Source: a virus
Taxonomy: Duplodnaviria > Caudoviricetes
Length of the DNA: 64,000 nucleotides
IMG/VR virus record: IMGVR_UViG_3300020576_006930
Coordinates: 1-64,000 of that record
Reading direction: 5' to 3' (one strand)
Shown: in pieces, positions 7,336 through 32,100 of the stretch
How positions within the stretch are numbered: the first letter of the stretch is position 1
How the letters are laid out: the number at the start of each line of letters is the position of its first letter
Program-made: the position numbers and the translations under genes
Notes under the pieces: generated by a model
What the model was told of the DNA's origin: nothing
What the model saw: the letters and a program-made list of their open reading frames with translations, nothing else
The model's database searches: none

Positions 7336-7379
7336 TATCTACTGGACTGGTCAAGATTCTCCGCGTGGGCTAAATTGGG

Positions 7380-7414
7380 CTTGACAGCTTATAAAAAGCT
7401 GATAGTATTTACAG
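7380..7414 (+). promoter_or_regulatory. Representative early promoter TTGACN-N13-TGN-TANNNT; about 30 copies between 6.45 and 32.5 kb
   Basis: cTTGACAgcttataaaaagcTGaTAGTAT; copies near 7872, 9672, 10062, 22380, 23284, 24330, 25707, 28584, 29445, 30299, 30610, 31223, 31794, 32452 (+) and 6475, 6910, 17984, 18773, 19980, 21767 (-). Confidence 0.85.
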
Positions 7415-7908
7415 ATGAACGAATTTAATCGGCTCCAATTAGCCCTGGACCCTGACGGGTTCCTGGAGTCTTGCGACCGGTGTAATCGGTTAATTCACAA
7501 CTGGAACTGGATGGGCTGGTCGTTTGTCACTTTTGACGGGCGGATTATCTGTAATGATTGCCGCCGCGTGGAATTGATTGAATCTTTAAATACTGAATAA
7601 TATGGGAATGCGCATTGCCATCGGAGAAAACATGTACCGCTTTAACCCTTTCATTGTCAAGAACAAGCCGGGGTATTATACGCTCACGGAGGTCCATCGC
7701 AACAATCTTGGTGCGTGGTATCATTTCGTTAATGATAAGGGAGATGAGGCTTGTGTTAGTGGAACTTATTTGAAGTATTCCGTGGAATGTGATGTGCCCT
7801 CTAGTAAGCAATACCGCCGGGATCGCCGAGCCTTAAAGAACCGGTCCGCTCATATTAGGATGAAATAAGGCTTGACCTTTTTATAATATCCTGTAAATTG
7901 TACAAGTA

Positions 7909-8208
7909 ATGAAAACTGAATTGGCAAATTACCTCAACGCTGAAACTGAAAAGTTGAAAGCTTCCCAAAAGAAATCTATGAAAAACCTCTGTGGTAAGAC
8001 CCGGCCGAAAGATAAACCGTATGAAGTCTGGTCGAATGACTCAGGCTGGACCTGGAATGTCTTGAAGAAATACAAGTCTGACGAAGCCGAATCGGCTGAT
8101 CCGTATGCCCGTTATTTTTGTTTTGTGACATCGCCTTTTTGCCCCACTGGCGAACTCGGTGATGTATATACATCAGAGATTAAATCACAAGCCACACGGG
8201 TCTCTTGA
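7909..8208 (+). CDS. Hypothetical early protein
   Basis: ATG directly after an early promoter; W..W.VLK.Y...YARYFCFV.SP...GELGDVY. Confidence 0.7.
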   Translation: MKTELANYLNAETEKLKASQKKSMKNLCGKTRPKDKPYEVWSNDSGWTWNVLKKYKSDEAESADPYARYFCFVTSPFCPTGELGDVYTSEIKSQATRVS

Positions 8209-8654: not shown

Positions 8655-11168
8655 AATAATAAGTATAAGTCAACAACACAAAACCATTCATAAAAATGGT
8701 TGACAACCATATAAAATTTAGTATAATATAAAAATGAACGAAAACGAAGTTTGTAACGGCTACCACGATAATCCGTTTACGCACCGCAATTCTCAACTCT
8801 GTAATTGTGGTTCCGGCCAGGAAAGTCACTGGGTCAACGATGCGCAAGGCATCCCCTTGTGTCGTGTGTGTCCGGCCTGTAAAGCAGACAAGCTGAGCCG
8901 TTATCGGCCGGAAATCTTGAGCGGCTATACCCAGGCCGATGTAGATGAACCGATTGAGCCGGAAGATTACTAAATGGCAACTAGATTTGAAAATGTCATC
9001 CAAATGTTGGCGCGGTATCCGATCAGGAACCCCGCGTGGACTACCAGCAATGTTATGGGGGACGCAAGGCAGATTGAGTTCCTGGCGGAGGCATCGGACC
9101 TGGGCCTTTTTGCGGGTCAAGTGATTATGGCCGCGCAAGACCCGTGGAACCGGAGCTTACTATACTTTCCTGAAAAGAAATTTAATCAAGAGAATGAACT
9201 AACCCATTGGGAATGTATAACCCGTGTGGCCGGCTACGAAGTGAAATTGAAGATTTTTAATGACTGATTTATGAATAATAACCGCCAAGTAATCTCTTAC
9301 TTGACCAAGCGATGTCCCAAGTATCACTACGATTTAATTGAAATTGGTAAAAAAGGGTCAGGTTATCAGTATCCTGTGATTTTAATTGTCGGTGGTAAAT
9401 TACACCGCATTACGATTTATGGGACTGAACACGAACTGGATTGTCTGGTCCCCCGACTGAATGAGTATTTTGAGACAGGAGTTTTTGAAACCGCCACTTA
9501 TCACGAATATTATGATAATTCGGACATTAGCGCAGTTGCGGGAAGAATCTTCCGATTTGATACTAAGGAAGCTATGTGGGCGCACGTGAAGATTGTTAGG
9601 GAAACTTATCCAAATTGTGGTATTCGTGAAGTCCCCAAGCCGTTAGATGGTAATTTTGTTTAAATAAAGTCTTGACTTTTTTATAATCTCCTGTAAATTG
9701 TACAAGTAATGAAACATCCAACCCATAACTATAAATGGTCAGTTGGGCAGGTCCTACAATACCCCCAAGGCGGTTACTGGAAAGTCATATCCCACGAAAC
9801 TTTTATTGGCCGCGGCAATGTTCCATCCTATGATGTCCGTAAATGTTCCGCATCTGGTTTGGAATACAAGGCTCGCAATGGATATACCTGCGAATATGCT
9901 GATACTTGGCGTCCTGTGACTTTATCGGCTGTCGGTGAAAAGGCAAGCACGGAAGGCATTTCAGTGGGGATTCATAAGAGACGTTTATCCTCAGTGAATG
10001 CCCAACTTAAATTTCTTATGGAGAAAAAGATTGAATTGGAGAAAATACTTTCAACAAAGTCTTGACCTTTTTATAAAATCTGAGATAATATCATCAATGA
10101 AAACACAATACTTGTTTTACACGGTGCGCTACGGTTCGGTCGGTCATAAGTGGGAATTCAACTGGCCCGGTGGCCGGACGCTGTTGGTGGCTTGTAAGGG
10201 CCGCTTGATGGCGGACAAGGTGGCCCGCATCGTGGCTGGGGCGCTCAAGCGTAGTGGCAATGAACTGGATGGCTTGGCTCGCACCACCATCACCAATTTG
10301 ATTAACCAATGATTTATACCGCACTCCCGGTCACGGGTCAAGATAATAGCCTTGGAGGGTGAGACTCCCTCGGTGCGGCCAACTTAGGTCGAGAGACCTG
10401 ATACTAGAGGTATCCGTATGGGCTACGATACAGTCCACCAATTTAAAATATGAAGAAATACAGAGTTAAAGTGTACTGGGAAATGTGTGGCGAAGTGGAA
10501 GTGGAGGCAAAATCTCCAGCTGAGGCGGCGAAGCTCGCAGTTGATGCGCCGTTGCCTAGTTCAGATAATCAGGAATACGTTCCGGATTCTGCTAATGTGG
10601 ATGAGGAACTGGACGTGGATGAGGTGGATGAGGTCAATGAGCAATACCTGGCGGAGATGGACCAGGAAATGAAGGAACGGGAATAATGTATTCCGTCATT
10701 AGAGATCCAGAAACCGGCGAAGTCATCGGCTGGATGAATTAAATTTATGTCAATGAATAATTACGCCAACCACGGCTATGTGGTCCCCGCAACGAAATTA
10801 ACCGTTCTGTTGCCCAACGACAAGTGGACCAAATTTTTGGATTTGGTTAAGGAGAACGAGCCGTTGCCAGTTATCTTGGATGAGCTCCAGGAGTTTTACG
10901 ATAGCAATAGCACCTACACACCGCCGGTGGAGTTTTTCGTCCTGAATGATGAAGCAGAGTCGGATGGCCTGGAAATCGGCAAAGTCTATGCGATGTTTGA
11001 CGAAGCAGACCTGTTTGAAATGACGCCCTCAAAATTTATGGACGCATTGAATAAGGAGGGGATTCACCCCAAAAATGAGCAGTGGGTTACCTGGGGTTGA
11101 TAGTTGACAATTTAATAATTTCTGGTATAATTCCAGAATAGTAGAAAAACAAAACATAAAACGCAAAA

Positions 11169-11504
11169 ATGAATACCAAAAACAAAATCACTCGTGGTCG
11201 GCCCCGTTATCCTGTCAAGTTCCCCAAGGGCGCTTTTACGGTCGATGAGCTGTTGGCCCTGAACCAGCCCAAGGTCAAGTGTGAGCTGACGGCTCGCAAT
11301 CATATTAATCGGGGCCTGAAGGAGGGTAAGTTGGTCAAGCTGAAGGAGAAGCTGACCACGGGTACCGTCGGAGCTCCGGCCTACAAGTTCCAACTCAAGT
11401 CCGCCTATGAGTACAATCTTAATCGCCGGTTGACCAAACTCCCGGCGCTGACGCCGCCTTCTTCCGCTGATGTCGCGGCCACGATGCGGACGATTCTGAG
11501 CTAA
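11169..11504 (+). CDS. Basic putative winged-helix DNA-binding protein with GRP motif
   Basis: RGRPRYPVKFP..FTVDELLALN...GAPAYKF; resembles the C-terminus of 24365-24934. Confidence 0.5.
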   Translation: MNTKNKITRGRPRYPVKFPKGAFTVDELLALNQPKVKCELTARNHINRGLKEGKLVKLKEKLTTGTVGAPAYKFQLKSAYEYNLNRRLTKLPALTPPSSADVAATMRTILS

Positions 11505-12085: not shown

Positions 12086-12778
12086 TTGTTATGGGCTTCT
12101 GGGACATTGATCACTGGGTTGCCTCTGATGGGGCATCGGACTTTCGTTGGACATTGATTCAGGCCTTCGGGGTTGCGTTAATGCCGGAGGCGGAACGCAA
12201 AACCAATGTGCGCAAGGTGGTAACGAAAGAACTGGCGGACATGGCGAATAACTATAATACTCCAGGTTACCTTAATCTAGCCCTCTGTTTGGAAGTGGAA
12301 GGCAAGGACAAGGGGTACGACGAAGAGTTGCCAGTCTTTTCCCATTTACTCACCACCGCTCAGTTGCGCAAGGCGGACCGCTTGTTTACCAAGGAAATCC
12401 CTCACTGGAATCCTAAACATCGCCCGCGGCTCAAGCAACTCCATAAGGTTATTACCACGCTGATTAAACAGCGGGGCAAAGTCAAACCGTAAATCACAGG
12501 GCCTAACCAGCCCACGCGGAGAAAAAATGAAAATTACCTTTCGGCCCAGTTGGGCCCTTGTCACCGCTATTGTCCTCATCGACTTATTTTGGGCATTAGT
12601 GCTTTATAGCCTGGTGTGGTCGGTGTATAAGTTGTTATTCTGGTCTACCGCTCCGGCCTGGTATGGGGATCAGATATACTTATACCTCATATTATACGGG
12701 CTACTAAGTATCTTTTTAGACTGGAAACATAACGGATTCCGTTGACATTTACCGCCGATAGTATAATATATTGGAAGA

Positions 12779-14191
12779 ATGTTTAAGACTGGATTGCTCA
12801 TCGGCGAACAAGTCGCCCACGCTAAAACGCTACTGGATTCACTTCACCTGAACGGGGTCGCCAATGATATGAGCGACACCGGAGTTGGGAAAACTTATGT
12901 GGCGACGGCCATCGCCGGCGCACTCAAGCGGCCTGTCGTGGTTATCTGTCCCAAGCCGGTCATCCACAAGTGGACTTCCCTGCTCAATACCTACGGGATC
13001 AAGCCGGAGCTGGTCTTGAATTATGAGAAACTTATCCGGGGCAATACCAAGTACCTCAAGTACGACAAAGCGCCCATCAATCCGGTCACCAAAAAGCCCG
13101 AAGAGTTCCCCCGCTGGTGCTTGACCCGGCTCCATTTTCCTGACAATGCGCTGGTGATTTTGGATGAGGCGCACCGCTGTAAAGCGCCCGGCTCCCTGTC
13201 GGCCGGCCTCCTGATCGCCTGTAAGAAGCAGGGCTACAAACTGCTCAACCTTTCCGCCACCCTGGCCTGTAATCCGCTGGAAATGCGGGCGGTGGGTTAC
13301 GCTAACAATCTGCTCCGCAATTACGATTCAAAATCTTATAAAGCCTTTGCGGCGGACCACGGAGCCGAATGGCTGGGCCGTTGGGGCGCCTTGACCTTTA
13401 ATGCGGAGGATGAAAAGGCGCAATCCAAGATGAAGGCGCTTCACGAGAGCCTTTTCAATATTCAGAAGTGCGCCAGTCGGTTGACCCGCAAGCAGATGGC
13501 GGCTTACTTCCCCGACAATCACGTTGACGCAACGGCGTATACGATGGACGAAGTTAGCGCCCGCAAAATCCAAGCCGTTTACGATTGGCTGGAACGGGAG
13601 CTGGAAAAACATTACGAACATACGGAAAGTTTTAGCGAATGTATTCTCTCAGTCATCCTGGAAGCCCGGATGCGCATCGAACTGCTCAAAGTCCCGCTGT
13701 TTGCCGAATTGATTGAGGACTCGTTTGATGAGGGCAATTCCGTCGTGGCCTTCGTCAATTTCAATCAATCATTTGAGGCCTTGTGGACCCGTTTGAACCA
13801 CCGCAAGGATTTACAGGGCTTGATCGCCCAAATCCGGGGTGGGCAAAAGGATAAGGACCGGCAACAAGACATTGCGGACTTCCAAGCCGACCGGAAACGG
13901 ATTGTCCTGGCGAACCAGGCCGCCGGCGGCATCGCCATTGATCTTCACGATTTGAATGGCAAGTTTGCCCGGGAAGCCTTTCTGTCGCCCGACTTTTCCG
14001 CCCCGCGTGTGCTCCAAGCGCTGGGCCGGATTCACCGCCACGGCGGGTTGACCCCGTGTTATCAAACTCTGGTCTATGTGGCCGGAACGATTGAGGAACG
14101 GGCCGTGTCGAAGTGTCAGGCCAAGATTAACAATTTGGAATTGTTAAATGCGGGGGACTTGACGATGGGCTTGCGACTGATAAATGTTTGA
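12779..14191 (+). CDS. Superfamily 2 (SNF2-like, DEAH) helicase
   Basis: DTGVGKT (I), LDEAH (II), LSAT (III), QALGRIHR (VI). Confidence 0.9.
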   Translation: MFKTGLLIGEQVAHAKTLLDSLHLNGVANDMSDTGVGKTYVATAIAGALKRPVVVICPKPVIHKWTSLLNTYGIKPELVLNYEKLIRGNTKYLKYDKAPINPVTKKPEEFPRWCLTRLHFPDNALVILDEAHRCKAPGSLSAGLLIACKKQGYKLLNLSATLACNPLEMRAVGYANNLLRNYDSKSYKAFAADHGAEWLGRWGALTFNAEDEKAQSKMKALHESLFNIQKCASRLTRKQMAAYFPDNHVDATAYTMDEVSARKIQAVYDWLERELEKHYEHTESFSECILSVILEARMRIELLKVPLFAELIEDSFDEGNSVVAFVNFNQSFEALWTRLNHRKDLQGLIAQIRGGQKDKDRQQDIADFQADRKRIVLANQAAGGIAIDLHDLNGKFAREAFLSPDFSAPRVLQALGRIHRHGGLTPCYQTLVYVAGTIEERAVSKCQAKINNLELLNAGDLTMGLRLINV

Positions 14192-14894
14192 CCCGTTTTA
14201 GAGCGGAATCTCTCATTTTCGCACGGGTTTCTGAAGTGAAAATTCTTTTCTTAGCCATTTCACTCATTTTTCTTTTTGTTTCGGAAGAATGTTTTTTCCC
14301 CAACATAGGTTTTCTTCCCTTGGCTAAATCAGATAATTTTTCCCGCGTGGCATTTGAGTGTGTTTTTCCATAGAATGGATTAAGTTTACCTGACAACACC
14401 GTTGGAATTTTTTGTCCCGTGTCATACATCGCTTTAAGGGACTGTGATATTTTATCCTTGGTTTCGGTTGACATAACAACTCCTAATCTGGAATTTCTTA
14501 TTTTGTCTCTAGCAATTTTTGTATGAGTGTTACCAAACATAGGATTGAGTTTTCCTTTAAGAGATTTTGATATTTGTTTACGGATATGTAATGGGTCTAA
14601 TTGGGCATGTTTGGATTTATTGTAAAAATAATTTTTACCATAATGTTTATCCAACCAATTCTGTTCTTCGGCTAAGGCTTCCATATCTGTTTGATGTATG
14701 GAAATTATTTCAAAGGAAAATGCGGTTTGTCCGTATTTATTCCAAGCATTTTGTAGGTGTGGATTTCGATGAATGTTCTTATTAAGATTATTAATGTGGG
14801 CTGACATTCTTCTTTTGAAATTTAATGTGCTTCCAACATAAAAATGTTTTGTTATAGTGTTGACAATTTTATAAACTATTGGTATTGTACTCAT
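14127..14894 (-). CDS. GIY-YIG homing endonuclease with NUMOD3 repeats
   Basis: VYKIVN...FYVGST...R...H; NPMFGNTHT, NPFYGKTHS, GKKHSSETKRKMS repeats. Confidence 0.9.
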   Translation of the reverse strand: MSTIPIVYKIVNTITKHFYVGSTLNFKRRMSAHINNLNKNIHRNPHLQNAWNKYGQTAFSFEIISIHQTDMEALAEEQNWLDKHYGKNYFYNKSKHAQLDPLHIRKQISKSLKGKLNPMFGNTHTKIARDKIRNSRLGVVMSTETKDKISQSLKAMYDTGQKIPTVLSGKLNPFYGKTHSNATREKLSDLAKGRKPMLGKKHSSETKRKMSEMAKKRIFTSETRAKMRDSALKRVKHLSVASPSSSPPHLTIPNC

Positions 14895-15434
14895 ATCGAA
14901 TAAGTATAGTTCGATTTAACTAAAGCGTTAAAACTAATTAAAATGGATGCTCAATTAATTGTGGTATTTCAGAATGGTTATGCGGAGGCCCGTGACCCAA
15001 GGCTGCGCAATCGCTTTGAAGTGGTAAACGTCGCCGCGGCAAAGGATATTAAAAAGACTATTTGGGCCCAACTCATCCGCTTGGACCGGCAGGGGCATGT
15101 GGTAGTCAAGTGGCAGGGCGATATGTTCCTCTGTGAAATGAAACAGGACCGCAAGGGTTATAACCGAACAGAGATTGAATATCACCCGTATCAAGCTCAA
15201 TTTACAATATGAAAGTTTTAATTGTCAGTTCCGCCGAAGGCGATTGGGAAGCCCTGTATGTAGATGGGGTTAAGAAAGTGGAGAACCATACCCTGTCACC
15301 CAGGGATATTTTTAATGTTCTGGGTCTGGATGTGGAATACTATACGCATCCGGAACTGGATGATCCCGACCGGTGTGATCCGCTGATGATGTTCCCTAAT
15401 GAGTGGGATAAGAAAGTCTAATGGTTTTCCGCGT

Positions 15435-15511
15435 GGGCCCTTAGCTCAATTGGTTAGAGCGTGGTACTCATAATGCCCGGGTTATCGGTTCAAGTCCGGT
15501 AGGGCCCACCA
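15435..15511 (+). tRNA. tRNA-Ile2/Met (CAT)
   Basis: Cloverleaf, GGGCCCT/AGGGCCC-A-CCA, loop CT-CAT-AA. Confidence 0.85.
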
Positions 15512-15890
15512 ATATTTAAATGAAAATACCTATTGTTAAAAAAGAAAACGATAAAATCTTAATTGAACTGAATGAACGGCAAGCGGAAATACTTGCTATG
15601 TTATTGGGGACATTATCACCCGCCAAGGTTCGTACGATCATCAATGACTATTTCGGGCGATATTCGGTTGGAAGTTGCCCAGAGTTATGCGCATCCCACA
15701 AGTCGGTAGATGTTCCAGGCTGGCAAGAACAAGATACGATGGTAACGCACCACGTCTTCAGTGGGCTTATCAAGGAATTAAACTGGCATGAAAAATACGA
15801 CAGAGAATATCAAGGTGAAGAAGAAACGTAAGAAAAAACACATTGGCAGATAAATTAAAATTTCCGCGTGGACTGCGATACTTATAGACT

Positions 15891-16249: not shown

Positions 16250-16302
16250 TTTGGTCTCAAAATATATTTGTTGTTTTGAGCGCAACCAATATACTTATAT
16301 GC

Positions 16303-17137: not shown

Positions 17138-17305
17138 ATTTCCATTCAATGGGCTAGACAATCTAGCAACAGGTCTGGAATTTATATGGGCACGCGGAAA
17201 TTTTCCGTGTTCCACCCCGCTCGCTATAGCGGACTAGAAAATATGGTCGGGTCGCTGACGTTAAAGGCCACGGTAATTATTATTATATAATATCAGATTA
17301 GATAT

Positions 17306-17350: not shown

Positions 17351-19014
17351 TTGCCGTTGATCGGTTTTACTTAGAGTAATTGGCGCCGAACAATTTTTTC
17401 ATAACTTCATCCGGGCCATCGGTGGAAAACTGCTTCCACTTCTGCGAGCCCTTGTAATCCCAGACACCGCAGTGTTGACCATTGGCAAAGAAGCCCCAGG
17501 AATGTTTTACCTTGTCCGGGTCATCCTCACAATTAGGTTTGAAGCCCAGAACCTTATTGATCTGGGCAACCGTGATGTTGCGTAGTGTACCTGTGCGGCC
17601 GGATCCAGGTCGATTGACAGGAACAATAGTGAGGGGCACGCCAGGTTTTTGGTTTTGTGTTTTGGTCATAAATTAAATACAGGCTTCGTACAGTTCTTCG
17701 TGGCTCGGAAATTCGGAGAAATGGGCCAGGTCCTTTTGCGTTAGATTGAACCGTTTCGGATTTTTCCGTAGGTCGCCGTAAGTCAGAACCTTATCGGAAA
17801 CGATGATATAACCGGACTCCAGCGGGTCCTCAAAAATCAGATAGCCCATCCCGACGATGAACTCCAGTAAATCGTTTCCAGATTCAGCGCTAACATAACA
17901 AGCGCCCTTAAAGGGCCGGATTTTTGGTTTGAATGTTTTGTATTTCATTTCTACTATTATCGCAGATTTTATAAAAAGGTCAAGCCTTTATTTTTCTTCG
18001 GCTAATTCTTGGGCCCGGGTGGCCGCATCTTCAAACTCTGAAAACCAGTCATCGCAGGCCTCCGTTACAGGATAACCACCGCTGGCTTGAGAAACGACAA
18101 TCCAACACTCGGTGAAGTCATCAAACTCAGCCCAGTAGAATAAGCCCGGCTGTTTTACACTTTCAAATTTCTTATTCACGCGGAAATATTATGTTCTTTC
18201 AAATCCCAGAGCCGCAGAAGGAATTCGTCGCCTTCACAATCTTCGCAAGCAATTGTGTTACCCTCTACCGTCGCCGCGCTTAAACCCTGTTCGGTAAGGA
18301 TAACGGAAAATTCCTGGCCTTCATCATCTTCCCAGGTCAATAACAGAATTTGATTTTCCGGGTCGCCCTTGATTTCGCCATCCCAGGAGATACGCACATT
18401 CTCCGCTTCCCCCGCAACTTCCACCGTATCACATTGAGCGATGTGCGTCAACAGATTATTTACTTTTGTTTTGTTTACCATAAAGTTACAAAGACGTCCA
18501 GGGCCTTGTTATTCTTAACATCAAAGCCAGGGGAGCAACCACACTGACAACCACATTTTAGGTTCCAGACGACGGGGAAGCCAACCGGCATCTTAATCTC
18601 CCGTAATACCTTGGATAAGCAATCCTTCCGGAAGCCGGCCACGGTCCAATCCCGCCGGATATTGAATACGGCGATTTTGGTGTGCCGGCGCTTCGGGTTA
18701 GTGGCCGGTTTAACTTGGATGGAACAGATTTTCATTACTTGTACAATTTACAGGACTTTTATAATAAGTCAAGCCCTTTTTAATTCTCTTTTTAGACAAA
18801 GCTCTCTGCGGTGTTTACGAATTGCTTGCTGTTTTTTGCTCATCTTTTGTGTCCAGGGCCAACACTTCAAACAGACCCAGGAACCGTGTAAACAATAGTC
18901 GGCCCGATGATTACAATTTGTACACTTTGGATAAATATTCATAATGCTGCCCAGGTGGGGGGTACTGCCCCACGCGGAAATTATCCGGTGAGGCCGTACC
19001 GTCCCCTGCGGGGG

Positions 19015-19941: not shown

Positions 19942-20235
19942 TTATTTGTACAATTTACAGGAGATTATAAAAAGGTCAAGCCCTATTATTGGAAAAATTC
20001 CATTTTGCCCAGTAGTTCAACTACTTCCGGCGTTAAGGCCGCCGTATTCACCACGCGGGAAAAGTCGGGTGGTTCAGGCAGTTCATCGCTGGCAATGTGG
20101 ATTTGGTCCCGGAGGTCCGATTCGGCGGAGTAATCGCTATTCATTAGGGACATATTATCAGCTTTGTCGCAATCGTCAATGCCTATTTTATAAAATCTTT
20201 CTAATCCTAACCATAAGGCAAAACGATATACACAA

Positions 20236-23317: not shown

Positions 23318-23710
23318 ATGTTAAACGCTACTGAATTACAGAATACATTGTCCGGCTTCTACGGCACGGATGGTTATCACAAGCTCACCATTTTCCCCGG
23401 CATCGTCGGCACGGACGGCGTCAAATATTTGGCCCAGAAAGCAGAGTGCTTCTGGCTCATTGATGAGATTGCGATTGCCCAACGGACTGTCCCGGCCGTC
23501 CGCAAGTTGGAGGATATTCAGTTCTGGGAATTGACCGTGGCGGACCGCAAGGCTGTGTTGGTTTGTAATGAGGATGAGGGCAAGCCGGTGTACACCAAGG
23601 AAATTGGGTTTACCGACTTCCCGCTCCCGAGCCAAAAGATTTGGGTGGCCGCAGGCGGGGACCCGGACGGCAAGGTGTTCAAGGTGATGATGCTGCCGAG
23701 CGAATACTAA
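23318..23710 (+). CDS. DUF6876-like protein
   Basis: FYGTDGYH...TDGVKYLA..A.CFWLID.I...DFPL...MLPSEY. Confidence 0.65.
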   Translation: MLNATELQNTLSGFYGTDGYHKLTIFPGIVGTDGVKYLAQKAECFWLIDEIAIAQRTVPAVRKLEDIQFWELTVADRKAVLVCNEDEGKPVYTKEIGFTDFPLPSQKIWVAAGGDPDGKVFKVMMLPSEY

Positions 23711-23881: not shown

Positions 23882-24100
23882 ATGGACCTTAAATTTATGA
23901 AAATACCAATGAAACCGTGTCCCTTCTGTGGTTCGGAAGATGAACATTGCGGCGACTTTGAACTCCAACGAAGCACTCCGGACCGTGAAGGCGTGCCCAC
24001 CCGTGTTATCTGTGGTTGTGGTGCGGCGGGGCCCCAGGTGTATGAACCGGATGAGGAAAACTTTATGTTGGCTGTCCAGGCGTGGAACAACCGGGCTTGA
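23882..24100 (+). CDS. Lar-like restriction alleviation zinc-ribbon protein
   Basis: KPCPFCGS...C.CGA.GP...AWNNR. Confidence 0.7.
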   Translation: MDLKFMKIPMKPCPFCGSEDEHCGDFELQRSTPDREGVPTRVICGCGAAGPQVYEPDEENFMLAVQAWNNRA

Positions 24101-24364
24101 CAAATTCTCCGCGTGGTGTATAATTATGGGGTATGAAAATAACCTTTACTCGGAATGTGAATTGCGATTTTTTTGACCACAAGACCCAGGAGGAGTACCC
24201 AAAATACTTCCAGAAATGGGACACGGTTCAAGCGGAAGCGGTAGAGAAGGCTGGCGCAACCGTGAATATTGCGCTTTACGATGGCAACACCATTATGGCG
24301 GTTCCGCGTGGGGCAGTTGAAATTGGGGCTTGACATTATATAAAAAGCTGATAGCCTTATTTCA

Positions 24365-24934
24365 ATGAATATCAAAAAGCTCGAAACCGAATTTACATTA
24401 AATGCGGATAAACGGGGAGATAATGTATTTAAACAAGTAATGCGCAATGAGTTCGCGGCCATCTATCAGCGGTTTGATATGACGGGCAAGCCTCTGGAGT
24501 TTGAAGTGTTTGCGATCAAAAAGGCGGGCGGCACGGAAGTTTTTGGCAAGTATTACGAGCCCTATGAGGCTTATCCCGGCGCCGCTGCGTTCGGCCGCAC
24601 CGCGTGGTCCACGAATACGGTTCAGCGAGCCAAGCAGATTTTTGATGAGATCACGGCCGGTGAAGGGCTGCGTAAGCAGGGTCAGGCGGCTAAGCCTGTG
24701 GCGGTCAAGCTGAAGCGAGTCGGTAAAGGTCGGCCCAAGTTGGCTCGCCCGGCGCTGGTCTTCCCGAAGAAAACCTTTTGTATGAAGGACCTGTTGGCGG
24801 TGAATCCTGGTTACACGCAACCGATTCTGTACATTGACTTGATGAAACTGGTTAAGGTCAATAAGGTTGTGGAATCCGAACGGAAGAAACTGGGCCCAGG
24901 TCGGCCGGTGGTTTTTTACAAAGTAAAAGCTTGA
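24365..24934 (+). CDS. Early protein with C-terminal GRP/winged-helix-like domain
   Basis: GRPKLARP..VFPKK.F...LLAVN...GRPVVFY, similar to 11169-11504. Confidence 0.55.
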   Translation: MNIKKLETEFTLNADKRGDNVFKQVMRNEFAAIYQRFDMTGKPLEFEVFAIKKAGGTEVFGKYYEPYEAYPGAAAFGRTAWSTNTVQRAKQIFDEITAGEGLRKQGQAAKPVAVKLKRVGKGRPKLARPALVFPKKTFCMKDLLAVNPGYTQPILYIDLMKLVKVNKVVESERKKLGPGRPVVFYKVKA

Positions 24935-25286
24935 CCTTTAACAGGTCGCTGATATTATATTGTTGTCTAACATAGAGAATGTGGTGAGACTTGTAAGCGA
25001 GTATGGGCTGTCTCTTGATACATAATACGCTATGGAAATGGCCGCCGGTCCTGACGATAAACTACTACCGGTTTTAATTTGCGGGATTGGTTTGTGAAAG
25101 TGCGGGGCTGGTTACCTGTAAGACGCTTTTAAAGTGTGAACCACACTTTTCCAATTTCGCACCAATTTATGGCGAGCGGATGGCCATTGTGAGAGGTCCC
25201 ATTGAAGGCTAGTAGTCCTGGACCGGACTAAAACTAACAATGCTCACGATGAATCAGGTCTGACTCCTGATTGTCGCCACTTTTTC

Positions 25287-25428
25287 GCGTGGGTTAGGTT
25301 GTTGGGAAAAACGACATTGCGTTAACGATGTCTAACCTGAAAGGGAACAAGATCGGTTCCTGAGTAACTGAAGCGCTGTTGGCCAACGGCGTTGTAAGTC
25401 GGTGGTTCGATTCCACCCCCACGCACCA
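25287..25428 (+). ncRNA. Enlarged tRNA-like RNA (142 nt)
   Basis: GCGTGGG/CCCACGC-A-CCA plus T arm GGTGG-TTCGATT-CCACC; interior replaced by several hairpins. Confidence 0.65.
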
Positions 25429-27137
25429 TTTTCTGTTTGACAGGTATTCGTTCATCCTGTATATTTATTACCAATGAAAACATTGACCGAACGGGACGCA
25501 CTCTTAAAGCCAAAGGCAAAGGGCACACTCAATAGTAAAACGCCTAATCCTTTTGAACTGGCTTATAAGGAACTCTGGGATCTTCTCCCCGCATGGAAAA
25601 AGAAAGCCTTCGCCGATGAGAATGCGGCTAATCGCATGACTGATACTCATCATAAGTTCATCAAAGATGTCACGGACCGGGCGGAAGAATTATTTGCGAC
25701 TAAAGCTTGACACTTTATAAAAAGCTGATAGGATATTGGCGTGATGAAGAACTTAATATCTTTTGTAAGACAAAACGAAATACCAATCGCCTTAATCGCA
25801 TTCTGTACCGCCGCTGGAGGTCTGTTTGGTCATCCTGGAATTGGACTCTCAATCTCAATTGCGGTAATCGCCTTGGTTCATTTATTTCTCTAATATGAAT
25901 GAAGTCCATTATCGTCTGATCTATCCCCGGGTCGACCGGGTTCCCGCTTCCAACTCTGACCAGCCGCGGGTCATTGACGGCCATTTGAACATCGGGTGTG
26001 GCTCCTGGAAAACCAACACCGCAATGCGGAAAGGGTTCTGCGATACTATTTTCGCCGGCGCTGGCAATCACCCTTACCTTAAATCCGAAGGCGGCGAACA
26101 ATTTGATTGGTGGCGCACGGCCAAGGCGCGCTCAATGTCGGTCGGGGATATTGTGAACATTGACCCGGCGGGGCTGAACGAATTTTGGATTTGCGATAGT
26201 TGTGGCTGGTTGTTGTTGACTCCGGACCAGGCTAACTCCTGGCTGGAATTTCCACGTCAACACGGTGCGTGTAGTTCTGAACTACGTCAATGGTTGGACC
26301 TTTACGTCAATGGTTGGACCTTAATTGCCAATGAAATATATAATGTTTGAAGAGCCGTCGGGTATCCGTTGGCCTCTGATGTTCCCTGAGATTGTCCAGC
26401 ACTCTGACATTGCTCGGGCGATTAACAGCGAAACACCCGGCATTAAACCTGTGTCCGCCGGCTTTTTCTCAATGCTAAAGACCGAAGGGGAAAATGTTTA
26501 TCTGACGCACGGCAAATCCGTTTCGATGGGCCTGGACGCCAAAGCGGAGGATGCGGAAGAAATTAAAAAAACATTTGACTTCTCCTGTTAAATCGGTTAG
26601 CATATATAACAATGAAACTGGATCGCAACTACTACTTGGTTCATAACACCGCATCCGAAACCGTCACCCATTACGATGATGCCTACCGCTTAGTAGGTTG
26701 GTTAATGGGCAAGAAAACTTCGCATTTGATTATCCACGTCATCAAGGGCAACAAGGCCAAGCTGTTGGCAGTCAACACAGACCCGTTGGACTTCCAAAAA
26801 GAATTGCTCGCCACGATGGCCAGTCTATAAGTTTATGGCAAAGGATATATTCGATCACGTTATGGCAATGTCTCCCGGTGAACTGAAGAAAACCCAGGGG
26901 CAATTTTCCAAGGCTCTTCATTCCGAAAAAAATCCTGAAATGGAAAACTTCCTGGAAGGTCTGGGCATGGAAGTGTTCGGGCGCAGTCGGGAATTGGCCC
27001 GGGCATTGGACCAGTGTATTGCGTGTGGTAAACCGGCCACGGAATTTCGTGACCAGTTGAGTCACCGTGAGTATTTAATTTCACATTTGTGTCAGTCCTG
27101 TCAAGACAAAGTGTTTGAGGAACCGGAAGAGTAATTT

Positions 27138-27479: not shown

Positions 27480-28611
27480 TATCTTTATAAATGAAATATC
27501 GCAATCGTTCAAGTCATTATCTGTTCACGGTTACATACACGGGAAACGGCACGGACAGTCAGAGTGAAATCTTTTTCAAGGCCTTATGTAAGGCTAACCG
27601 TGAGGTGGGTCCGGGTCAACTTTTCCGGATGGGCCGGAAACGGGACCGCAGCGCAATAACTGACCGAGCCACCCGTTGCCGGGGTCACGTCCCGATTACC
27701 ATTTGCGACCGCTTCGATGTTTATGTGCGGATTAAGCCGGATTATTCCTGTATTCACAACTCTACTCAGGGGAATTGGACAATCTTGGGCGAAAATACCA
27801 AGAAACGCACACGGGCTCTCATCCAAAGCGCTGGCGATTTAATCGCCATTAATTGGCAGATTATTGAATATTGTAATGAGGCTCATAAGGACCTCTTCGA
27901 TAAAATATTCTATCCAAAAACCGAAATCGTTTCTATTCCTGACACCGACGAAAACAAAATTGTTTTTCCAAAGGGTATCACCCTCACCAATCAATCAAAT
28001 ATGAAATACGAACCTAAGTTCAATAACTGGGAAGTCAAACTCAGCGCAAAAGTCCGTTGTGTCGGCCCCGGTGTGGTTGCCGATGTGGACCGGTTTTTCA
28101 AGGGCATCACGGGATTGTCTGAAGTGGTTTTGACGGAAGCGACTCCGATTGATGAACACAAGGACCTTCCGCTGGTGTCGTTTCGATATCCTCCTGCTAA
28201 TAAGATTGGTTACAGCGATGTTCTTGCGGAGGAACGGTCAATCCGGGTTACCAAGATGGATGACACCTACCTGGAAGGATTCGACAGGCAACAATTCAAG
28301 AAGTTCCGCGTGGACCGTATCGTGGGTGAAATCATCTTGGTGGAATTGTCTGGTAAACAGAACTAATCTATGCTACAAACAAATCTAATCGGCCGGCAGT
28401 TCACTACTCGCAATGATAAAAGTGTGTTAACCGTGGTCGCCGTCTTTGTTAATCAGGGCCGGCTATGGCTAACAGGCGAATCGGAGCGGGGTAGTTTACT
28501 TACTTATCAGTTTGATGAAGTAAAACTAATCCCAGCCCCGCGTGGGCAGGCAGAAGATTTACGGGGAATTATATAAAAAGCTGTTGACCTTTTATACAAA
28601 GCTGATAGACT

Positions 28612-29130
28612 TTGTGTATGAAGAAAAACGATAAAGTCATTCTCAACGTTCCGGTAAAAGAAGAGTATCGGGACACTATGATTCCCGCCGGCACCGAACT
28701 GATGATCTGGAAGGCCAGTCGGGACGGGACGCTCCGTTGTTCTTACAAGGGTCGGTACGGTGCGCAATCTGTCACCGTCAAGGCAACGGCGGTTACCCCG
28801 ATACTAGGCCGCAATTGCCCAATGCCCCAAAAGGGCGACCTGTTTGTCTCCAGCTGGGGCTACGGCCAAACCAACATTGATTATTTCCAGGTCGTGGGCG
28901 TCAAGGGCAAGATGATTGAGGTCTGCCGCATCCAAGGCGCCAACCTCAGTTACGATGCCCGGTGTTTCCAGGGCACCACCAAGCCGGTTCCGAACGCATT
29001 CACCAGCGAAGCCCGCCGGTATCTGGTCCGCTTCAACGCAGAGGACAAACCTTATTTCAAGGTCGCTTCCTACGCAAATGCGTATCCCACTACGGCCGAC
29101 GCAGTTCACAATTACAGCGACGGCAACTAA
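28612..29130 (+). CDS. Hypothetical early protein
   Basis: Follows an early promoter; GDLFVSSWGYGQTNIDYFQV motif. Confidence 0.65.
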   Translation: MCMKKNDKVILNVPVKEEYRDTMIPAGTELMIWKASRDGTLRCSYKGRYGAQSVTVKATAVTPILGRNCPMPQKGDLFVSSWGYGQTNIDYFQVVGVKGKMIEVCRIQGANLSYDARCFQGTTKPVPNAFTSEARRYLVRFNAEDKPYFKVASYANAYPTTADAVHNYSDGN

Positions 29131-32100
29131 TAATGGATTATGGACAAGATAACGCACATGGGCTTGGAGCGACTGGAGGCCCTTATCGCCAGTTGGAACG
29201 GACAGAAGATCCTGGTCCGCGTGCCCTTGGTCGGCACCGCTTTTGTTGCTTTTTATGGGACATTGACGGAAGGTATGAACGACGGCGACGAGCCGCAGTT
29301 TACCATTACCCGAACGGACATGCCCTCCCCCACATTAGTTTTTCAAGCCGTCGACGTAGCTTTCATTATGAACCCTGATAAGGTACCGCAAATAGTGTTG
29401 AAAAACCCGCCGGTGCCTCCGGTCCAGAATTTTGATAATAAGGCTTGACCTTTTATACAAAGCTGATAAATTGTCCATAGATGAACGCAACAATCGCTCC
29501 GAACGAAATCGCAGTCCGCCATAGTGTTTGTAACGACTCTGAATGGCTCACCATCGATTGTCTTAATGATTGGGATGATGTTAAGAAATTGACCAAAAAG
29601 GTTCTGATCTATGATGACCGGCGTTTTACCTTTCGGATTTGGAACAGCGACCGGCACGAATGTTTCTTCGCCCGCATGCTGGACCCAAAAAGGTGCGGCG
29701 GTACTGCCAAGATCGTCGCACGCACCAAGAAAGATAAACTTCCCGTATGATTCTACGCTTACACGTCGATACCAATGATTACACGGACAAAGACGATGTT
29801 ACCATCCCGATGCTTCAGGATACCCCCTGGAACTTGTTCAAACTCCGCGTGGCCACCTTCCAGGACTGGCGTACCATTGGTCAGACTGGTTTCTGGACCA
29901 TTGATGGGGAGTCTTATTGTGGAACAGCTTACGAATGCGAAATCAACTACCGGGACGAACTCCTGCTCCGGACCTTGGTCAACCGCATCAAGGAAATCTG
30001 TGGGGACCGTTTTATCAATATGTGGATCAATGACTTGCCTGTGGGCTTTACCAAAGATGAGGGCTTATTGGTAATGAATATGAACCCGGCGTGGCTTGCG
30101 GAAATGGTTGGCAACGGAAGATATGACACTCACCCCTAGACAAATCGTCGCGGTTAAATGGCTTATCCGTTGGACGAAAGAATGCGTTCAGGAAAGGATG
30201 GATGCCTTTGAGGATATGGAGCGCACCGGAGAGATTGAAAAGGGCCATCTTGCTTATGTTCAGAGTATTATCGATGAACTGAAAAAGATAGAAGAGGCTT
30301 GACACTCTCCAGATATTTGATAATATATCACCAATGAATATCTTCGGCATCCGCAATAAACAAACCAAACAATTGATCCGTGTCAGCGCATTCTCTAATG
30401 AAGGCTGCGAAGATTGTAATAACGTCGGCGCAATCTTTGAAATGAGCGATTATGGCGACTCTTTGTATGTCGTTGCTTCGTATGGTGTTGCGTTGAAAGC
30501 CTTGGAAACCGACCCCGCCTGGTACAATTCTTCATTGGAACGGCCGCAATGGCCGGATAACTTCGATCCTGGTGCCTGGGAGGTAGTTACAATTGAAGTG
30601 AAATAATCATTGACACTTTATAAAAAGCTGATAATCTATTGATATGAAACGAGCAAGTTATATCTACGTCGGCAGCAACGACACCACGGTTTACATTTCT
30701 GATCTAAACATCGGTATGAGTGTCACTAATGATGCTGAGCGGGTGGTTGAGGAAATCATTCCCCGCTTCAAGGGTAAACGCATCGTCTACAAGGACACCG
30801 ATGGGCGCTGGGATGAGCTGGTCCACGATGGGCACCAATTCACGGGATTCGCCCCCAGCCAGGCGCCGGAAGGTATTCTGTTTTAATTGTTTATGAAAAT
30901 TACTCTTAGGCCCGCGGCTAAGCTTCGGCAAGCCACCAAAGTTAAACAATCGGAAAAAGAACCGACAATGCTTTCTGTTGTTCAACGGTTTATCAATGGC
31001 CCGTTGAAAACAAACATCGAAGATGCCTTGTGTTACACCGATAGATATGGAATTAACGAACAAGTTCCGCATGAGGCTTATCGTAATCTTCCTCTGTTTT
31101 ATAAACTTTGTAGTGAGGCACTTACGCCGCTTGGTTATTCCTGCGAAGAAAGTCACGACGGCGGCGGAATGTTTAGCACTCTGTATGTCAGTTGGGCGCC
31201 GAAGAAAAAAGTAAAATAAGTGTTGACGCTTTATAAAAAGCTGATAGACTATTGGCGTTATGAGAACCTTCAAAGAATGTCAAACCGAACTGGAACTGAA
31301 ACCCGTTGGGCAGTTCATCTTTAAGAAGGCCTGTCACTTCCCCAAATCAGGCGATACCATCCCAGCCGGGACTGAAGTCACCCTCTTTTACTCCCCCAAA
31401 GCCTACAACCGGGTATATCTTGACCGTGGTTCATTCGCAAAAACCATTAAACTGGCTAATTGCCACGGGTATTTCAAGGGCTTCTACAAGATGCCCACCA
31501 TGCGGACCTTGGAGAAGCAGGGCAACGATGCGATTGTGACGACTCCGACGGGGCACCGCGTGGAACCGGACGGCTACGGCCCCGATGGTATTCCCAGTTG
31601 GTTAATGGTGCTTGGTGTCATTTAAAAAAATATGAAGAAATGTATATTCAATTACCGTTATATGCTCATTCCTGTCGCTATCCCTTTACTGAATGATTTC
31701 TATAATGGAAAGCTAGTCACCCTTTACCGGGTGATTTTGATCTTCGGTTTCCGCGTGGCCTATTGGACGGTCAGGCAATAATAAAAAAATCATTGACGGC
31801 CTTAATAAAGCTGGTAGGATATAGATATGAAAGTTGACCACACTGGTTTCCTAAAGTATCATATGTTGGGGGAAATGATTTATAAACTCCAAACCGTCAA
31901 GAGTGACCTGGATCATCAATTTGAAATCGTCGTCCGGCGCTACATTACCGCCAACTTACCCCAACACGCTCGCTTCGCTGACCAAGCCTCAATTGACTTT
32001 ACCTGGCGTGAGGATGGGATTAATGTCTCTTATGACTATGAAGCCGATGGTTTCGGTTTTATGGATGGTCCGGAAAAACGCTCGGAATACTTCCATTTGA

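What the first reader, a model, noticed from the sequence alone, without database searches (positions are those of the whole stretch)
7361..31758. Octamer CCGCGTGG over-represented, strand-biased and confined to the early region
SEEN: + strand at 7361, 7564, 9032, 14343, 15429, 15864, 24109, 24304, 24600, 28306, 28538, 29845, 31556 and 31751; - strand at 12512, 18970 and 20051, with near matches at ~17190 and ~18177. A rough composition estimate gives under one expected copy in this interval, and I saw none in the rest of the window by eye. It often follows TT or TTCT, occurs both within and between genes, and is mostly co-oriented with local transcription. INFERENCE: a Chi-like protective site, a translocase or DNA-entry signal, or a protein-binding or antitermination site.
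Basis: partly seen in the sequence, partly recalled or inferred. Interest (0 to 1): 0.72.

Follow-up and report, generated by a model that had tools for sequence, protein, structure and literature searches.

The report
Oriented 13-bp early-region phage motif
An uncultured freshwater jumbo phage and its relatives carry about one copy per 1.4 kb of a 13-letter DNA word (core CCGCGTGG) in their early genes only, nearly always pointing the way the genes are read, and it is most likely the docking site of a phage regulator protein rather than a Chi-like site.

Summary
All 17 listed positions are exact matches, against about 1 expected. The window is the first 64 kb of a 139-kb phage contig. There are only 2 further copies in the other 112 kb, and both lack the flank that all 17 share.

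The real motif is longer and asymmetric: A-W-T-Y-T-CCGCGT-G-G. It has no dyad symmetry and no fixed distance to a promoter element or start codon.

Sites follow the local gene strand: 15 of 17 in the window and about 48 of 52 in eight related metagenomic contigs. They use all three codon phases and favour intergenic DNA and gene ends. Their positions turn over between relatives while density is kept.

The motif occurs only in the phage clade that encodes a close homolog (at least 55% identity) of the 189-aa early protein at 24365-24934. That protein has a predicted C-terminal winged helix with RGRP (AT-hook-like) motifs. Its operon carries a site inside its own promoter spacer and two more sites.

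Best reading (about 0.4): dispersed asymmetric binding sites of this early regulator, acting in an orientation-dependent way on early transcription.

Rivals are an ops-like pause or loading signal, an RNA decay tag, Chi and nick sites. Chi and translocase readings are weakened because orientation flips with gene blocks. The host is unknown, so they are not excluded.

The parts
7361..7368 (+). Site; intergenic, 26 nt after the GIY-YIG gene 6934-7335 and 12 nt upstream of the -35 TTGACA of the promoter at 7381
7564..7571 (+). Site; last 20% of ORF 7415-7600, phase 3; 38 nt (motif start to ATG) before the ATG at 7602
9032..9039 (+). Site; coding, gene 8974-9267, phase 2
12512..12519 (-). Site; intergenic and antisense to the + gene block. 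This is one of the two exceptions. Its complement overlaps a GGAG just before the ATG at 12527.
14343..14350 (+). Site on the + strand inside the inserted minus-strand GIY-YIG/NUMOD3 homing-endonuclease gene 14127-14894. It is co-oriented with the flanking + block.
15429..15436 (+). Site abutting tRNA-Met; its last GG are tRNA bases 1-2. The relative L230:183 also has TTTTCCGCGT at a likely tRNA 5' end (read by eye, not run through ARAGORN), in another register.
15864..15871 (+). Site; intergenic, 27 nt (motif start to ATG) before the ATG at 15891. The orthologous sites L230:467 and L231:445 read CCGCGTGC.
17190..17197 (-). Near-site TTT-CCGCGTGC, co-oriented with the minus gene block
18176..18183 (-). 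Near-site TTT-CCGCGTGA, co-oriented with the minus gene block
18970..18977 (-). Site forming the 3' arm of a strong intercistronic hairpin after the GP88-family gene. Conserved in L013:3194, L120:4226 and L230:3081.
20051..20058 (-). Site in small ORF 19986-20144(-), phase 3; conserved in L013:1947 and L120:3147
24097..24124 (+). Consensus sigma70-type promoter (TTGACA, 16 nt, TATAAT; 12 of 12) whose spacer holds the site at 24109-24116. It drives genes 24133-24333 and 24365-24934. The same arrangement is seen at L149:3250 and L230:6536. In L236/L237 the site overlaps the start region instead.
24304..24311 (+). Site at the end of gene 24133-24333 (phase 1), 19 nt upstream of the -35 TTGACA of the promoter at 24330. 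Conserved at L149:3054; a variant is at L236:401.
24600..24607 (+). Site inside the candidate reader gene (phase 2, codons T-A-W). Six of seven clade orthologs keep at least one site in this gene, at four different positions.
24365..24934 (+). Candidate reader: 189-aa early protein. N-terminal beta-rich domain, basic linker with KGRP/RGRP, and a C-terminal winged helix whose wing carries GRGRP in most homologs.
11169..11504 (+). 111-aa protein sharing the RGRP...FPK..F..(D/E)LLA.N module with the C-terminal half of the 189-aa protein; a second candidate reader
25285..25292 (+). Near-site TTTT-TCGCGTGG, co-oriented
28306..28313 (+). Site; last 7% of gene 27491-28366, phase 3; not conserved in L124/L173
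28538..28545 (+). Site; end of gene 28370-28576, phase 1, 38 nt upstream of the promoter at 28584; not conserved in L124/L173
29845..29852 (+). Site; coding, gene 29747-30139, phase 3; not conserved in L124/L173
31556..31563 (+). Site; last 20% of gene 31260-31625, phase 3; L173 reads CCACGTGG here
31751..31758 (+). Site; intergenic, after a terminator-like hairpin (31715-31736) and 34 nt upstream of the promoter at 31793

Best explanation
CCGCGTGG is the GC-rich core of an asymmetric site of about 13 bp, 5'-A-W-T-Y-T-CCGCGT-G-G-3'. I propose it is the recognition site of a phage-encoded early DNA-binding protein.

The best candidate is the 189-aa product of 24365-24934. In this model its winged-helix recognition helix reads the GC core in the major groove. 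Its RGRP-bearing wing or linker (AT-hook-like) reads the adjoining A/T run in the minor groove.

The protein would regulate its own operon through the site in the spacer of promoter 24097-24124 and the sites at 24304 and 24600. It would also bind about once per 1.4 kb across the sigma70-driven early region. There it would act in an orientation-dependent way on transcription, for example by repressing or insulating early promoters or by forming a polar roadblock.

Shown: the motif, its flanks, its confinement to the early region, its orientation rule, its turnover with kept density, its restriction to one clade, and the fold prediction.

Inferred: that this protein binds the site, and what that binding does.
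For: 1. The motif is sharp, asymmetric and about 13 nt long. CCGCGT was the search anchor. Next to it, G follows in 57 and then 46 of 65 sites. Upstream, T is found at -3 in 44 of 65, A or T at -4, and A at -5 in 36 of 65. There is no dyad and no fixed-distance -10, -35 or ATG. This matches the footprint of a single winged helix with a minor-groove wing.

2. The 189-aa protein has a confident model (pLDDT 78). Its residues 115-189 align only to winged-helix DNA-binding domains such as PadR, MarR, Fur, ArsR and MecI. Z is 5.6-7.1 with rmsd about 2-3 A over 55-66 residues; Foldseek local probability is about 1.0. Most homologs carry RGRPR in the linker and GRGRP at the wing tip.

3. One site lies in the spacer of a perfect TTGACA-16-TATAAT promoter that drives this operon. 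The same arrangement occurs in L149 and L230. In L236/L237 the site overlaps the start region instead. The operon holds 3 sites within 500 bp.

4. Six of seven clade orthologs keep at least one site inside the gene. The sites sit at four different codon positions and in different phases. Where T/S-A-W is encoded by other codons, the site lies elsewhere in the gene or, in L231, is absent. This suggests the site is kept at the nucleotide level.

5. All nine loci that encode a homolog at 55% identity or more have 0.3-1.2 CCGCGTG per kb. About 30 loci with only distant homologs (30-43%), or with no detected homolog, have 0.23 per kb or less, although they share the same promoter type.

6. About 12 sites lie 2-38 nt upstream of a -35 element, in the promoter's orientation.

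7. There is a precedent. Phage P1 C1 repressor has 22 dispersed, asymmetric 17-bp operators and represses its own promoters (PMC8546580).
Against: - Binding was not tested, and no tool here docks protein to DNA.
- The protein-motif co-occurrence (point 5) is confounded by shared descent. Any clade-specific gene would show it.
- Strict co-orientation with genes, including 9 of 10 coding sites, is not required of an ordinary operator. It fits signals read by transcribing RNA polymerase or on RNA at least as well.
- Most sites are not at promoters.
- The promoter-associated sites of the operon are missing in L231, L233 and L235.
- Three sites within 500 bp is not significant on its own.
- Z below 8 can reflect only a common fold.
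- In the window's own protein the two motifs read KGRP and PGRP, not the canonical RGRP.
Confidence: 0.4

Rival explanations
1. An ops-like pause or loading signal. The site would be read in the non-template strand (or the nascent RNA) by host RNA polymerase transcribing early units. RNA polymerase would pause at the U of ...GCGU|G. The pyrimidine/T-rich stretch 6-11 nt upstream would be read by a pro-pausing NusG or by a phage elongation factor.
For: - Sense-strand orientation: 15 of 17 in the window and about 48 of 52 in relatives.
- The core shares GCGTG with E. coli ops (GGCGGTAGCGTG), including the pause-inducing TG at positions 11-12 (PMC5995543).
- With T as -1, the pyrimidine/T run falls at about -7 to -10. 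This overlaps the -11 TTNTTT -6 NusG pause motif (PMC9963633).
- Orthologous sites tolerate loss of the last G but keep TG (L230:467 and L231:445 against window 15864).
Against: - There is no G at -10/-11, which the E. coli consensus pause has.
- Position -6 is an invariant C, not T.
- Sites are not placed in operon leaders; distances to the upstream promoter run from +93 to +1566 (my reckoning).
- Pause signals are degenerate, whereas this core is strict.
- No NusG-family gene was found on the contig. The contig is only 39% of the genome, so this is weak.
- The conserved site in a promoter spacer has no obvious role in this model.
Confidence: 0.2
2. A Chi-like hotspot. The octamer would be the Chi sequence of the unknown host's RecBCD/AddAB enzyme, accumulated to protect or recombine the first-entering DNA, as in Chi-rich lambdoid phages.
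For: - The pattern strongly resembles phage LLS (23 Chi sites, 20:3 orientation, clustered near one end, one per 1.9 kb, the most frequent octamer) and MD8 (32:0). [quoted passage not shown]
- Here there are 17 sites at 14:3, clustered, one per 1.4 kb, with turnover between relatives.
- The word resembles known Chi sequences: it shares GTGG with E. coli Chi and CGCGTG with Lactococcus GCGCGTG (the latter from my own knowledge).
Against: - Orientation follows local gene blocks rather than one DNA end. Minus-block sites are minus in the window, L013, L230 and L231, and lone opposite-strand genes carry opposite-strand sites.
- The 5' A/T-pyrimidine flank is part of the signal, which is not a Chi feature.
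- Orthologous sites tolerate changes in the last base.
- None of 400 sampled Pseudomonadota exceeds about 2x a reversed-word control. Pirellulales counts equal Markov expectation.
- The phage encodes an SbcCD-like nuclease.
Confidence: 0.12
3. An RNA-level tag on early transcripts. The site would be the target of a sequence-specific endoribonuclease or RNA-binding protein that processes or inactivates early mRNAs, analogous to T4 RegB at GGAG or RNase III sites in T7 early RNA.
For: - Sense orientation, confinement to the early region, flexible positions and all three phases.
- Bias to intercistronic positions and gene ends (12 of 17, permutation p = 0.002).
- One site, and probably a second, sits exactly at a tRNA 5' boundary.
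- Some sites lie in conserved intercistronic hairpins.
Against: - There is no common RNA structure. Most sites fold no better than shuffled sequence.
- No RegB family match was found, but the control genomes also gave no match, so this is uninformative.
- Cleavage inside conserved genes, including the regulator's own, would be costly.
- The promoter-spacer site is better explained at the DNA level.
- No RNA data exist for this phage.
Confidence: 0.1
4. Recognition sites of a phage nickase, giving localized single-strand interruptions as in T5 (R/GCGCRGG) or Pseudomonas phage tf (TACT/RTGMC).
For: Phage tf has 14 copies of a 9-mer, all on one strand of a 46-kb genome. The T5 nick consensus is GC-rich and contains GCGC (PMC3517423). 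Two GIY-YIG endonuclease genes lie in the region, one of them 26 nt from the site at 7361.
Against: Known nick sites sit on one DNA strand regardless of gene direction; tf has convergent transcription units. Here the strand flips with gene blocks. The motif is confined to the early region rather than spread genome-wide.
Confidence: 0.05

Closest known systems
Phage P1 C1 repressor operators (asymmetric 17-bp consensus ATTGCTCTAATAAATTT; 22 dispersed sites)
   Same: Many copies of an asymmetric, non-palindromic site are scattered over a phage genome. The regulator's own promoters carry sites (PMC8546580).
   Different: P1 operators mostly overlap promoters and belong to a lysogeny switch. Here most sites lie in coding DNA or at gene ends, are confined to the early region of a probably lytic jumbo phage, and follow the gene strand. 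The proposed reader is a wHTH/AT-hook protein unrelated to C1, and binding has not been tested.
Chi-rich lambdoid phages (LLS, MD8) and phage P1
   Same: An octamer is the most frequent GC-rich word, at about 1 per 1.5-2 kb, is strongly strand-biased (20:3, 32:0), is clustered in one region, and turns over in evolution (PMC12315714).
   Different: Chi polarity is set by the DNA end, whereas here it flips with gene blocks. A 5' A/T flank is required here. The host word is unknown and was not found enriched in any sampled genome.
ops element / RfaH, and NusG-dependent TTNTTT pauses
   Same: These are strand-specific signals read in the non-template strand. They share the GCGTG 3' part with the TG pause dinucleotide and have a T/pyrimidine-rich segment upstream.
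   Different: There is no G-10/-11, the sites are not placed in operon leaders, the core is far stricter than a pause signal, there are many copies per region, and no NusG paralog was found.
T4 MotA boxes of middle promoters
   Same: A 9-bp asymmetric box is read by a two-domain phage protein. Boxes lie within the early region, are co-oriented with transcription, and often sit inside upstream genes (from my own knowledge of T4).
   Different: The MotA box sits at a fixed -30, with a -10 element 12-13 bp downstream. No fixed-distance -10 follows this motif.
Localized nick sites of phages T5, tf/LUZ24 and phiKMV
   Same: These are over-represented, strand-specific 7-9-mers in phage DNA (PMC3517423).
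   Different: They lie on one strand only, irrespective of transcription, and are spread genome-wide.

Membership tests
Chi (RecBCD/AddAB hotspot) | The same word is over-represented and strand-skewed in the host chromosome | tested here: inconclusive
   The host is unknown. In 400 Pseudomonadota the count never exceeded about 2x a reversed-word control. In Pirellulales G006 and G051, 28 and 27 copies were observed against 21-27 expected under Markov models. An apparent strand skew in G010 was an artefact of how the tool listed hits.
Chi (RecBCD/AddAB hotspot) | One polarity relative to the DNA end, independent of gene direction | tested here: not met
   Minus-strand gene blocks carry minus-strand sites in the window, L013, L230 and L231. 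A lone opposite-strand gene carries an opposite-strand site.
Dispersed asymmetric operator of a phage regulator (P1 C1 type) | Asymmetric consensus present at many dispersed places | tested here: met
   13-nt asymmetric consensus without dyad symmetry. There are 17 sites in the window and 65 non-identical sites across the clade.
Dispersed asymmetric operator of a phage regulator (P1 C1 type) | Sites overlap promoters, including the regulator's own | tested here: inconclusive
   One site lies in the spacer of the promoter of the operon encoding the wHTH protein. This holds in the window, L149 and L230, and at the start region in L236/L237. It is missing in L231, L233 and L235. About 12 sites lie 2-38 nt upstream of a -35, but most sites are not at promoters.
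Dispersed asymmetric operator of a phage regulator (P1 C1 type) | The protein binds the site specifically | not testable with these tools
   Only a fold prediction is available: a winged helix with Z 5.6-7.1.
ops / NusG-paralog loading site | Consensus pause (G-10/-11 ... Y-1 G+1) on the non-template strand | tested here: inconclusive
   TG is present, GCGTG is shared with ops, and orientation is sense. However, -10/-11 are A/T, not G.
ops / NusG-paralog loading site | A cognate NusG-family factor is encoded | tested here: inconclusive
   PF02357 was not found on the contig, and the controls gave matches as they should. The contig is only about 39% of the genome.
T4 MotA-box middle promoter | Box at -30 with a -10 element at a fixed 12-13 bp downstream | tested here: not met
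   No offset between +8 and +55 has TAnnnT in 6 or more of the 65 sites.
Intrinsic terminator | GC-rich hairpin followed directly by a U run | tested here: not met
   The T run precedes the GC core. Most sites have no hairpin. Terminator-like hits in the region do not exceed the number in shuffled sequence.
Localized nick sites (T5, tf) | All sites on one DNA strand | tested here: not met
   Strand split is 14+/3- and flips with gene blocks.
Localized nick sites (T5, tf) | A physical nick in virion DNA | not testable with these tools
   Only assembled contigs of public runs were available.
Known RNA family (Rfam) | A covariance-model match over the sites | tested here: not met
   Only tRNA-Met touches a site. 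No other family matches in 6-33 kb.

The most novel reading that the evidence does not exclude
The sites would be polar signals read only by machinery moving in the direction of transcription. A phage winged-helix/AT-hook protein would bind an asymmetric 13-mer written about once per 1.4 kb into the sense strand of every early unit. It would either load onto elongating host RNA polymerase or form a one-way barrier. This would give the phage a direction-sensitive switch over its whole early region. Such genome-wide, orientation-coded elongation control has not been described for phages.
Probability: 0.15. Interest if true: 0.85.

Novelty: new variant of a known kind. Interest (0 to 1): 0.55.

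Why it matters
Uncultured jumbo phages are almost entirely made of genes of unknown function. Here a sequence signal by itself defines an early regulon, its boundaries (6.3-33 kb), a testable 13-bp site and a specific candidate reader protein, all without a cultured host.

The strict link between site orientation and gene direction is unusual for an operator. If it reflects polar action on RNA polymerase, it would be a new way for a phage to time or insulate early transcription.

The work also shows how to tell a transcription-linked word from a Chi-like one. Chi-rich phages look very similar at first sight in copy number, strand bias, clustering and turnover.

Tried and rejected
- **Close relatives in phage collections.** None were found by megablast, with the helicase protein or with a 24-nt promoter pattern in IMG/VR. 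A shorter promoter 15-mer returned only random single hits.
- **Chance or codon usage.** Rejected.
- **Copies of a longer repeat or mobile element.** Rejected: flanks beyond -5/+3 are unrelated.
- **Common RNA structure.** Only the sites after the GP88 gene sit in a hairpin.
- **Known RNA family.** None.
- **Promoter element (-35, -10 or MotA-like).** No fixed spacing.
- **Intrinsic terminators.** Rejected.
- **Complement in a phage ncRNA (tmRNA, GOLLD).** None.
- **Pirellulales as host.** A MAG with a distant GP88 homolog holds 671 copies. The excess over the reversed-word control is compositional: two other Pirellulales genomes match Markov expectation. An apparent 67:0 strand skew in G010 came from the tool listing + and - hits to different depths.
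- **400 Pseudomonadota.** No Chi-like excess. This set includes the unpublished genome G445, on which no claim rests.
- **Genes on the contig.** RegB, T7-type RNAP, RNAP beta subunit and NusG were not found. Absence on a 39%-complete contig is uninformative.
- **Sequencing runs.** No RNA holder was listed. Contigs of four runs were laid on 13-33 kb and showed only identical DNA, with no information on ends or nicks.
- **Co-variation of motif with reader across clades.** Distant ortholog clades B-G gave no clear replacement motif. Pooled counts there were inflated by near-identical loci.
- **L140's GTTTTACGCGTC repeats.** At first taken as a dialect of the motif. They appear to be upstream elements of opposite-strand CTTGAC promoters, so they are treated as a separate phenomenon.
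- **Pfam on about 40 early proteins.** Almost all are ORFans.
- **Literature search for the word itself.** Only primers turned up.

Full report
**What the sequence is.** The window is the first 64 kb of a 139,132-bp IMG/VR phage contig that CheckV rates about 39% complete. It carries 34 tRNA genes called by ARAGORN, a tmRNA and a GOLLD RNA. It has baseplate and SbcCD-like genes but almost no other recognisable proteins. Public runs that hold it are riverine metagenomes. Between about 6.4 and 32.5 kb lie about 30 sigma70-type promoters with an unusually conserved form: GGCTTGAC, two bases, TTTATAAAAAGCTGATAnnnT. Each is followed 6-9 nt later by an ATG. This is an early region transcribed by host RNA polymerase, apparently as leaderless mRNAs.

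All 17 positions are exact matches, against 1.3 expected with 0 of 100 shuffles reaching 17. The contig has 19 copies. The early region has 17 against 0.6-1.9 expected. The other 112 kb has 2 against 2.3-3.4 expected (p = 9e-11). Only a tRNA T-loop word is more over-represented in the contig.

**The signal is longer than the octamer.** Position -2 is a pyrimidine in 17 of 17 window sites and in 30 of 30 when three relatives are added. Position -1 is a pyrimidine in 26 of 30. I then pooled 65 non-identical sites from the clade, anchored on CCGCGT with part of the flank fixed by the search. In these, T is at -3 in 44, A or T at -4, and A at -5 in 36. G follows the core in 57 and then in 46. The consensus is A-W-T-Y-T-CCGCGT-G-G. 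The two copies outside the early region both have a purine at -2, so they look like background.

**Where the sites lie.** Flanks beyond this consensus are unrelated, so the sites are not copies of a repeat. There is no dyad symmetry, and no -10, -35 or ATG at a fixed distance. No shared RNA fold exists and no Rfam family covers the sites. Coding sites use phases 1, 2 and 3, with ordinary codons. Twelve of 17 sites are intergenic or in the last fifth of a gene (permutation p = 0.002).

**Orientation follows genes, not the molecule.** Fifteen of 17 sites are co-oriented with the local gene (p = 0.002). One of the two exceptions, 14343, lies in an inserted minus-strand homing-endonuclease gene within a plus-strand block. 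The minus block at 17.3-22.1 kb holds only minus-strand sites and near-sites.

**Relatives show the same orientation rule.** I found relatives in three ways: through the GP88-family protein, through a promoter pattern in metagenomes, and through the 189-aa protein.

| Relative | Co-oriented sites |
|---|---|
| L013 | 6 of 6 |
| L120 | 4 of 4 |
| L230 | 14 of 15 |
| L231 | 7 of 9 |
| L233 | 7 of 7 |
| L235 | 4 of 4 |
| L236 | 6 of 7 |

A lone minus-strand gene in L231 carries a minus-strand site (9902). One conserved anti-oriented pair exists (L230:4256; L231:4497 and 4540). This rule argues against signals whose polarity is set by a DNA end, such as Chi, KOPS-like words or entry signals. It also argues against one-strand nick sites.

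**Evolution of the sites.** At 72-82% nucleotide identity, five window sites are kept exactly while their flanks diverge. These are 18970, 20051, 24109, 24304 and 24600. Four others are lost in L124/L173 (28306, 28538, 29845, 31556). Relatives also have sites that the window lacks, some of them inside small insertions. Density is kept at 0.3-1.4 per kb. Orthologous sites can lose the last G: window 15864 reads CCGCGTGG where L230:467 and L231:445 read CCGCGTGC. The family-level core is therefore TTTTCCGCGTG. One site abuts the 5' end of tRNA-Met (window 15429). L230:183 appears to abut a second tRNA in a different register, judged by eye from the D-arm sequence.

**A candidate reader.** The densest stretch holds sites at 24109, 24304 and 24600. 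It begins with a site inside the spacer of a perfect TTGACA-16-TATAAT promoter. That promoter drives a 66-aa gene and the 189-aa gene at 24365-24934. The spacer site recurs in L149 and L230. In L236/L237 a variant lies between the -10 element and the ATG.

**The candidate's structure.** The 189-aa protein has 25 homologs, all without annotation. The AlphaFold model built on their alignment has pLDDT 78. It shows a beta-rich N-terminal domain, a disordered basic linker and a C-terminal beta-alpha-alpha-beta-beta unit. That unit matches only winged-helix DNA-binding domains. Foldseek gives local probability about 1.0, and VIA-align gives Z 5.6-7.1 across its top 50 rows.

**The RGRP motifs.** Most homologs have RGRPR in the linker and GRGRP at the wing tip. 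Both are AT-hook-like cores, which bind A/T minor grooves; that property is from my own knowledge. A recognition helix on the GC core plus a wing on the adjoining A/T run would explain the two-part, asymmetric 13-mer. A 111-aa early protein (11169-11504) shares the RGRP...FPK..F..LLA.N module.

**Sites inside the candidate's own gene.** Six of seven clade orthologs keep a site within the gene, at four different positions. Where T/S-A-W is encoded by non-motif codons, the site lies elsewhere in the gene or, in L231, is absent.

**Clade restriction.** Every locus with a homolog at 55% identity or more has the motif. About 30 loci with only 30-43% homologs, or with no detected homolog, lack it, even though they share the same promoters. 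This last point is confounded by common descent. I could not find replacement motifs in the distant clades.

**Weighing the readings.** The DNA-binding reading explains three things: the shape of the site, the promoter-spacer site, and the frequent placement 2-38 nt upstream of -35 elements. It does not by itself explain why coding sites also obey the orientation rule. That points to action on, or by, transcribing RNA polymerase.

**The ops-like rival.** The core shares GCGTG, including the pause-inducing TG, with ops (PMC5995543). Its pyrimidine/T run overlaps the position of the NusG pause motif -11 TTNTTT -6 (PMC9963633). So an ops-like pause or loading site is the main rival.

**The Chi rival.** Chi-rich phages look very similar in copy number, bias, clustering and turnover (PMC12315714). 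They fail on polarity and flank. No sampled genome shows the word as Chi-like, but the host is unknown.

**Odds.**

| Reading | Odds |
|---|---|
| Regulator binding site | 0.40 |
| ops-like pause or loading signal | 0.20 |
| Chi-like hotspot | 0.12 |
| RNA decay or processing tag | 0.10 |
| Nick sites | 0.05 |
| Something else | remainder |

**Closest known analogue.** The closest described analogue in behaviour is the set of 22 dispersed asymmetric C1 operators of phage P1 (PMC8546580). This case differs from it in four ways: the early-region confinement, the coding-sequence sites, the orientation rule and the type of protein.

**Earlier scan notes.** A note on another genome (e1-137525) led me to the Chi-rich lambdoid paper. 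Same-genome notes on the bipartite GC-rich hairpin (e1-5750420) and on the GOLLD RNA agree with what I saw. The scan had not noted this word elsewhere.

Noticed in passing
window 6400-32500, e.g. 7381-7417, 23284-23320, 25707-25745: About 30 sigma70-type promoters share a long consensus: GGCTTGAC, two bases, TTTATAAAAAGCTGATAnnnT. This includes a conserved spacer, which is unusual. The ATG follows the -10 element by only 6-9 nt, so early mRNAs appear to be leaderless.
   Followed up: partly
whole contig (G000:C1): There is strong depletion of TGCA (95 observed per strand against 525 expected). CATG (166), CTAG (142) and GTAC (183) are also depleted. HIP1 (GCGATCGC) and GCGCGTG do not occur at all. 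This looks like restriction-site avoidance and may be a clue to the host.
   Followed up: no
G000:C1 80000-131000 (late genes): Long late genes mostly lack a Shine-Dalgarno sequence. Many have a TATATTTAT-like word 10-15 nt before the start codon. This may be a late promoter with very short leaders.
   Followed up: no
window 40252-40719 and 38624-39026: A GOLLD RNA (Rfam RF02032, 157 bits) and a one-piece tmRNA (126 bits) lie beside the tRNA arrays.
   Followed up: yes
window 6934-7335(+) and 14127-14894(-): There are two GIY-YIG endonuclease genes. The first has the catalytic domain only. The second has three NUMOD3 motifs and is inserted antisense in a plus-strand block.
   Followed up: partly
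window 23909-24100: A 63-aa Lar-like restriction-alleviation protein (PF14354, E = 2e-7) lies just upstream of the candidate regulator operon.
   Followed up: no
window 5510-5590(-) and 18940-19020(-); L013:3150-3230: A hairpin scaffold GGTACnGC...GCAGTACC recurs. Its inner part is either the CCGCGTGG site or, at 5555, TAATTAAAGCTGC, which resembles the promoter spacer word.
   Followed up: partly
L140:589-733 and 4188-4285: A more distant relative has eight copies of GTTTTACGCGTC in two tandem arrays. Six are preceded by GTCAAG plus 8 nt. Read on the other strand, this is GACGCGTAAAAC just upstream of CTTGAC -35 elements.
   Followed up: partly
L129, L157, L175: Another clade of relatives carries repeated GGGTAGGG...CCCTACCC hairpins in intergenic DNA.
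   Followed up: no
L231:7386-7967 and L232: The homolog of the 189-aa protein in these Logan contigs equals the database protein only if TGA is read as Trp. This may reflect recoding or a gene-calling artefact in a relative.
   Followed up: no
G000:C1 76995-77666: A 223-aa protein has a weak Sigma70 region 2 match (E = 0.002, 15 bits, below the family cut-off). It could be a phage sigma factor placed ahead of the structural genes.
   Followed up: no
window 7415-33200: Intrinsic-terminator-like hairpins are no more frequent in the early region than in shuffled sequence (18 against 17.4, and 15 against 16.9), despite about 30 promoters.
   Followed up: no
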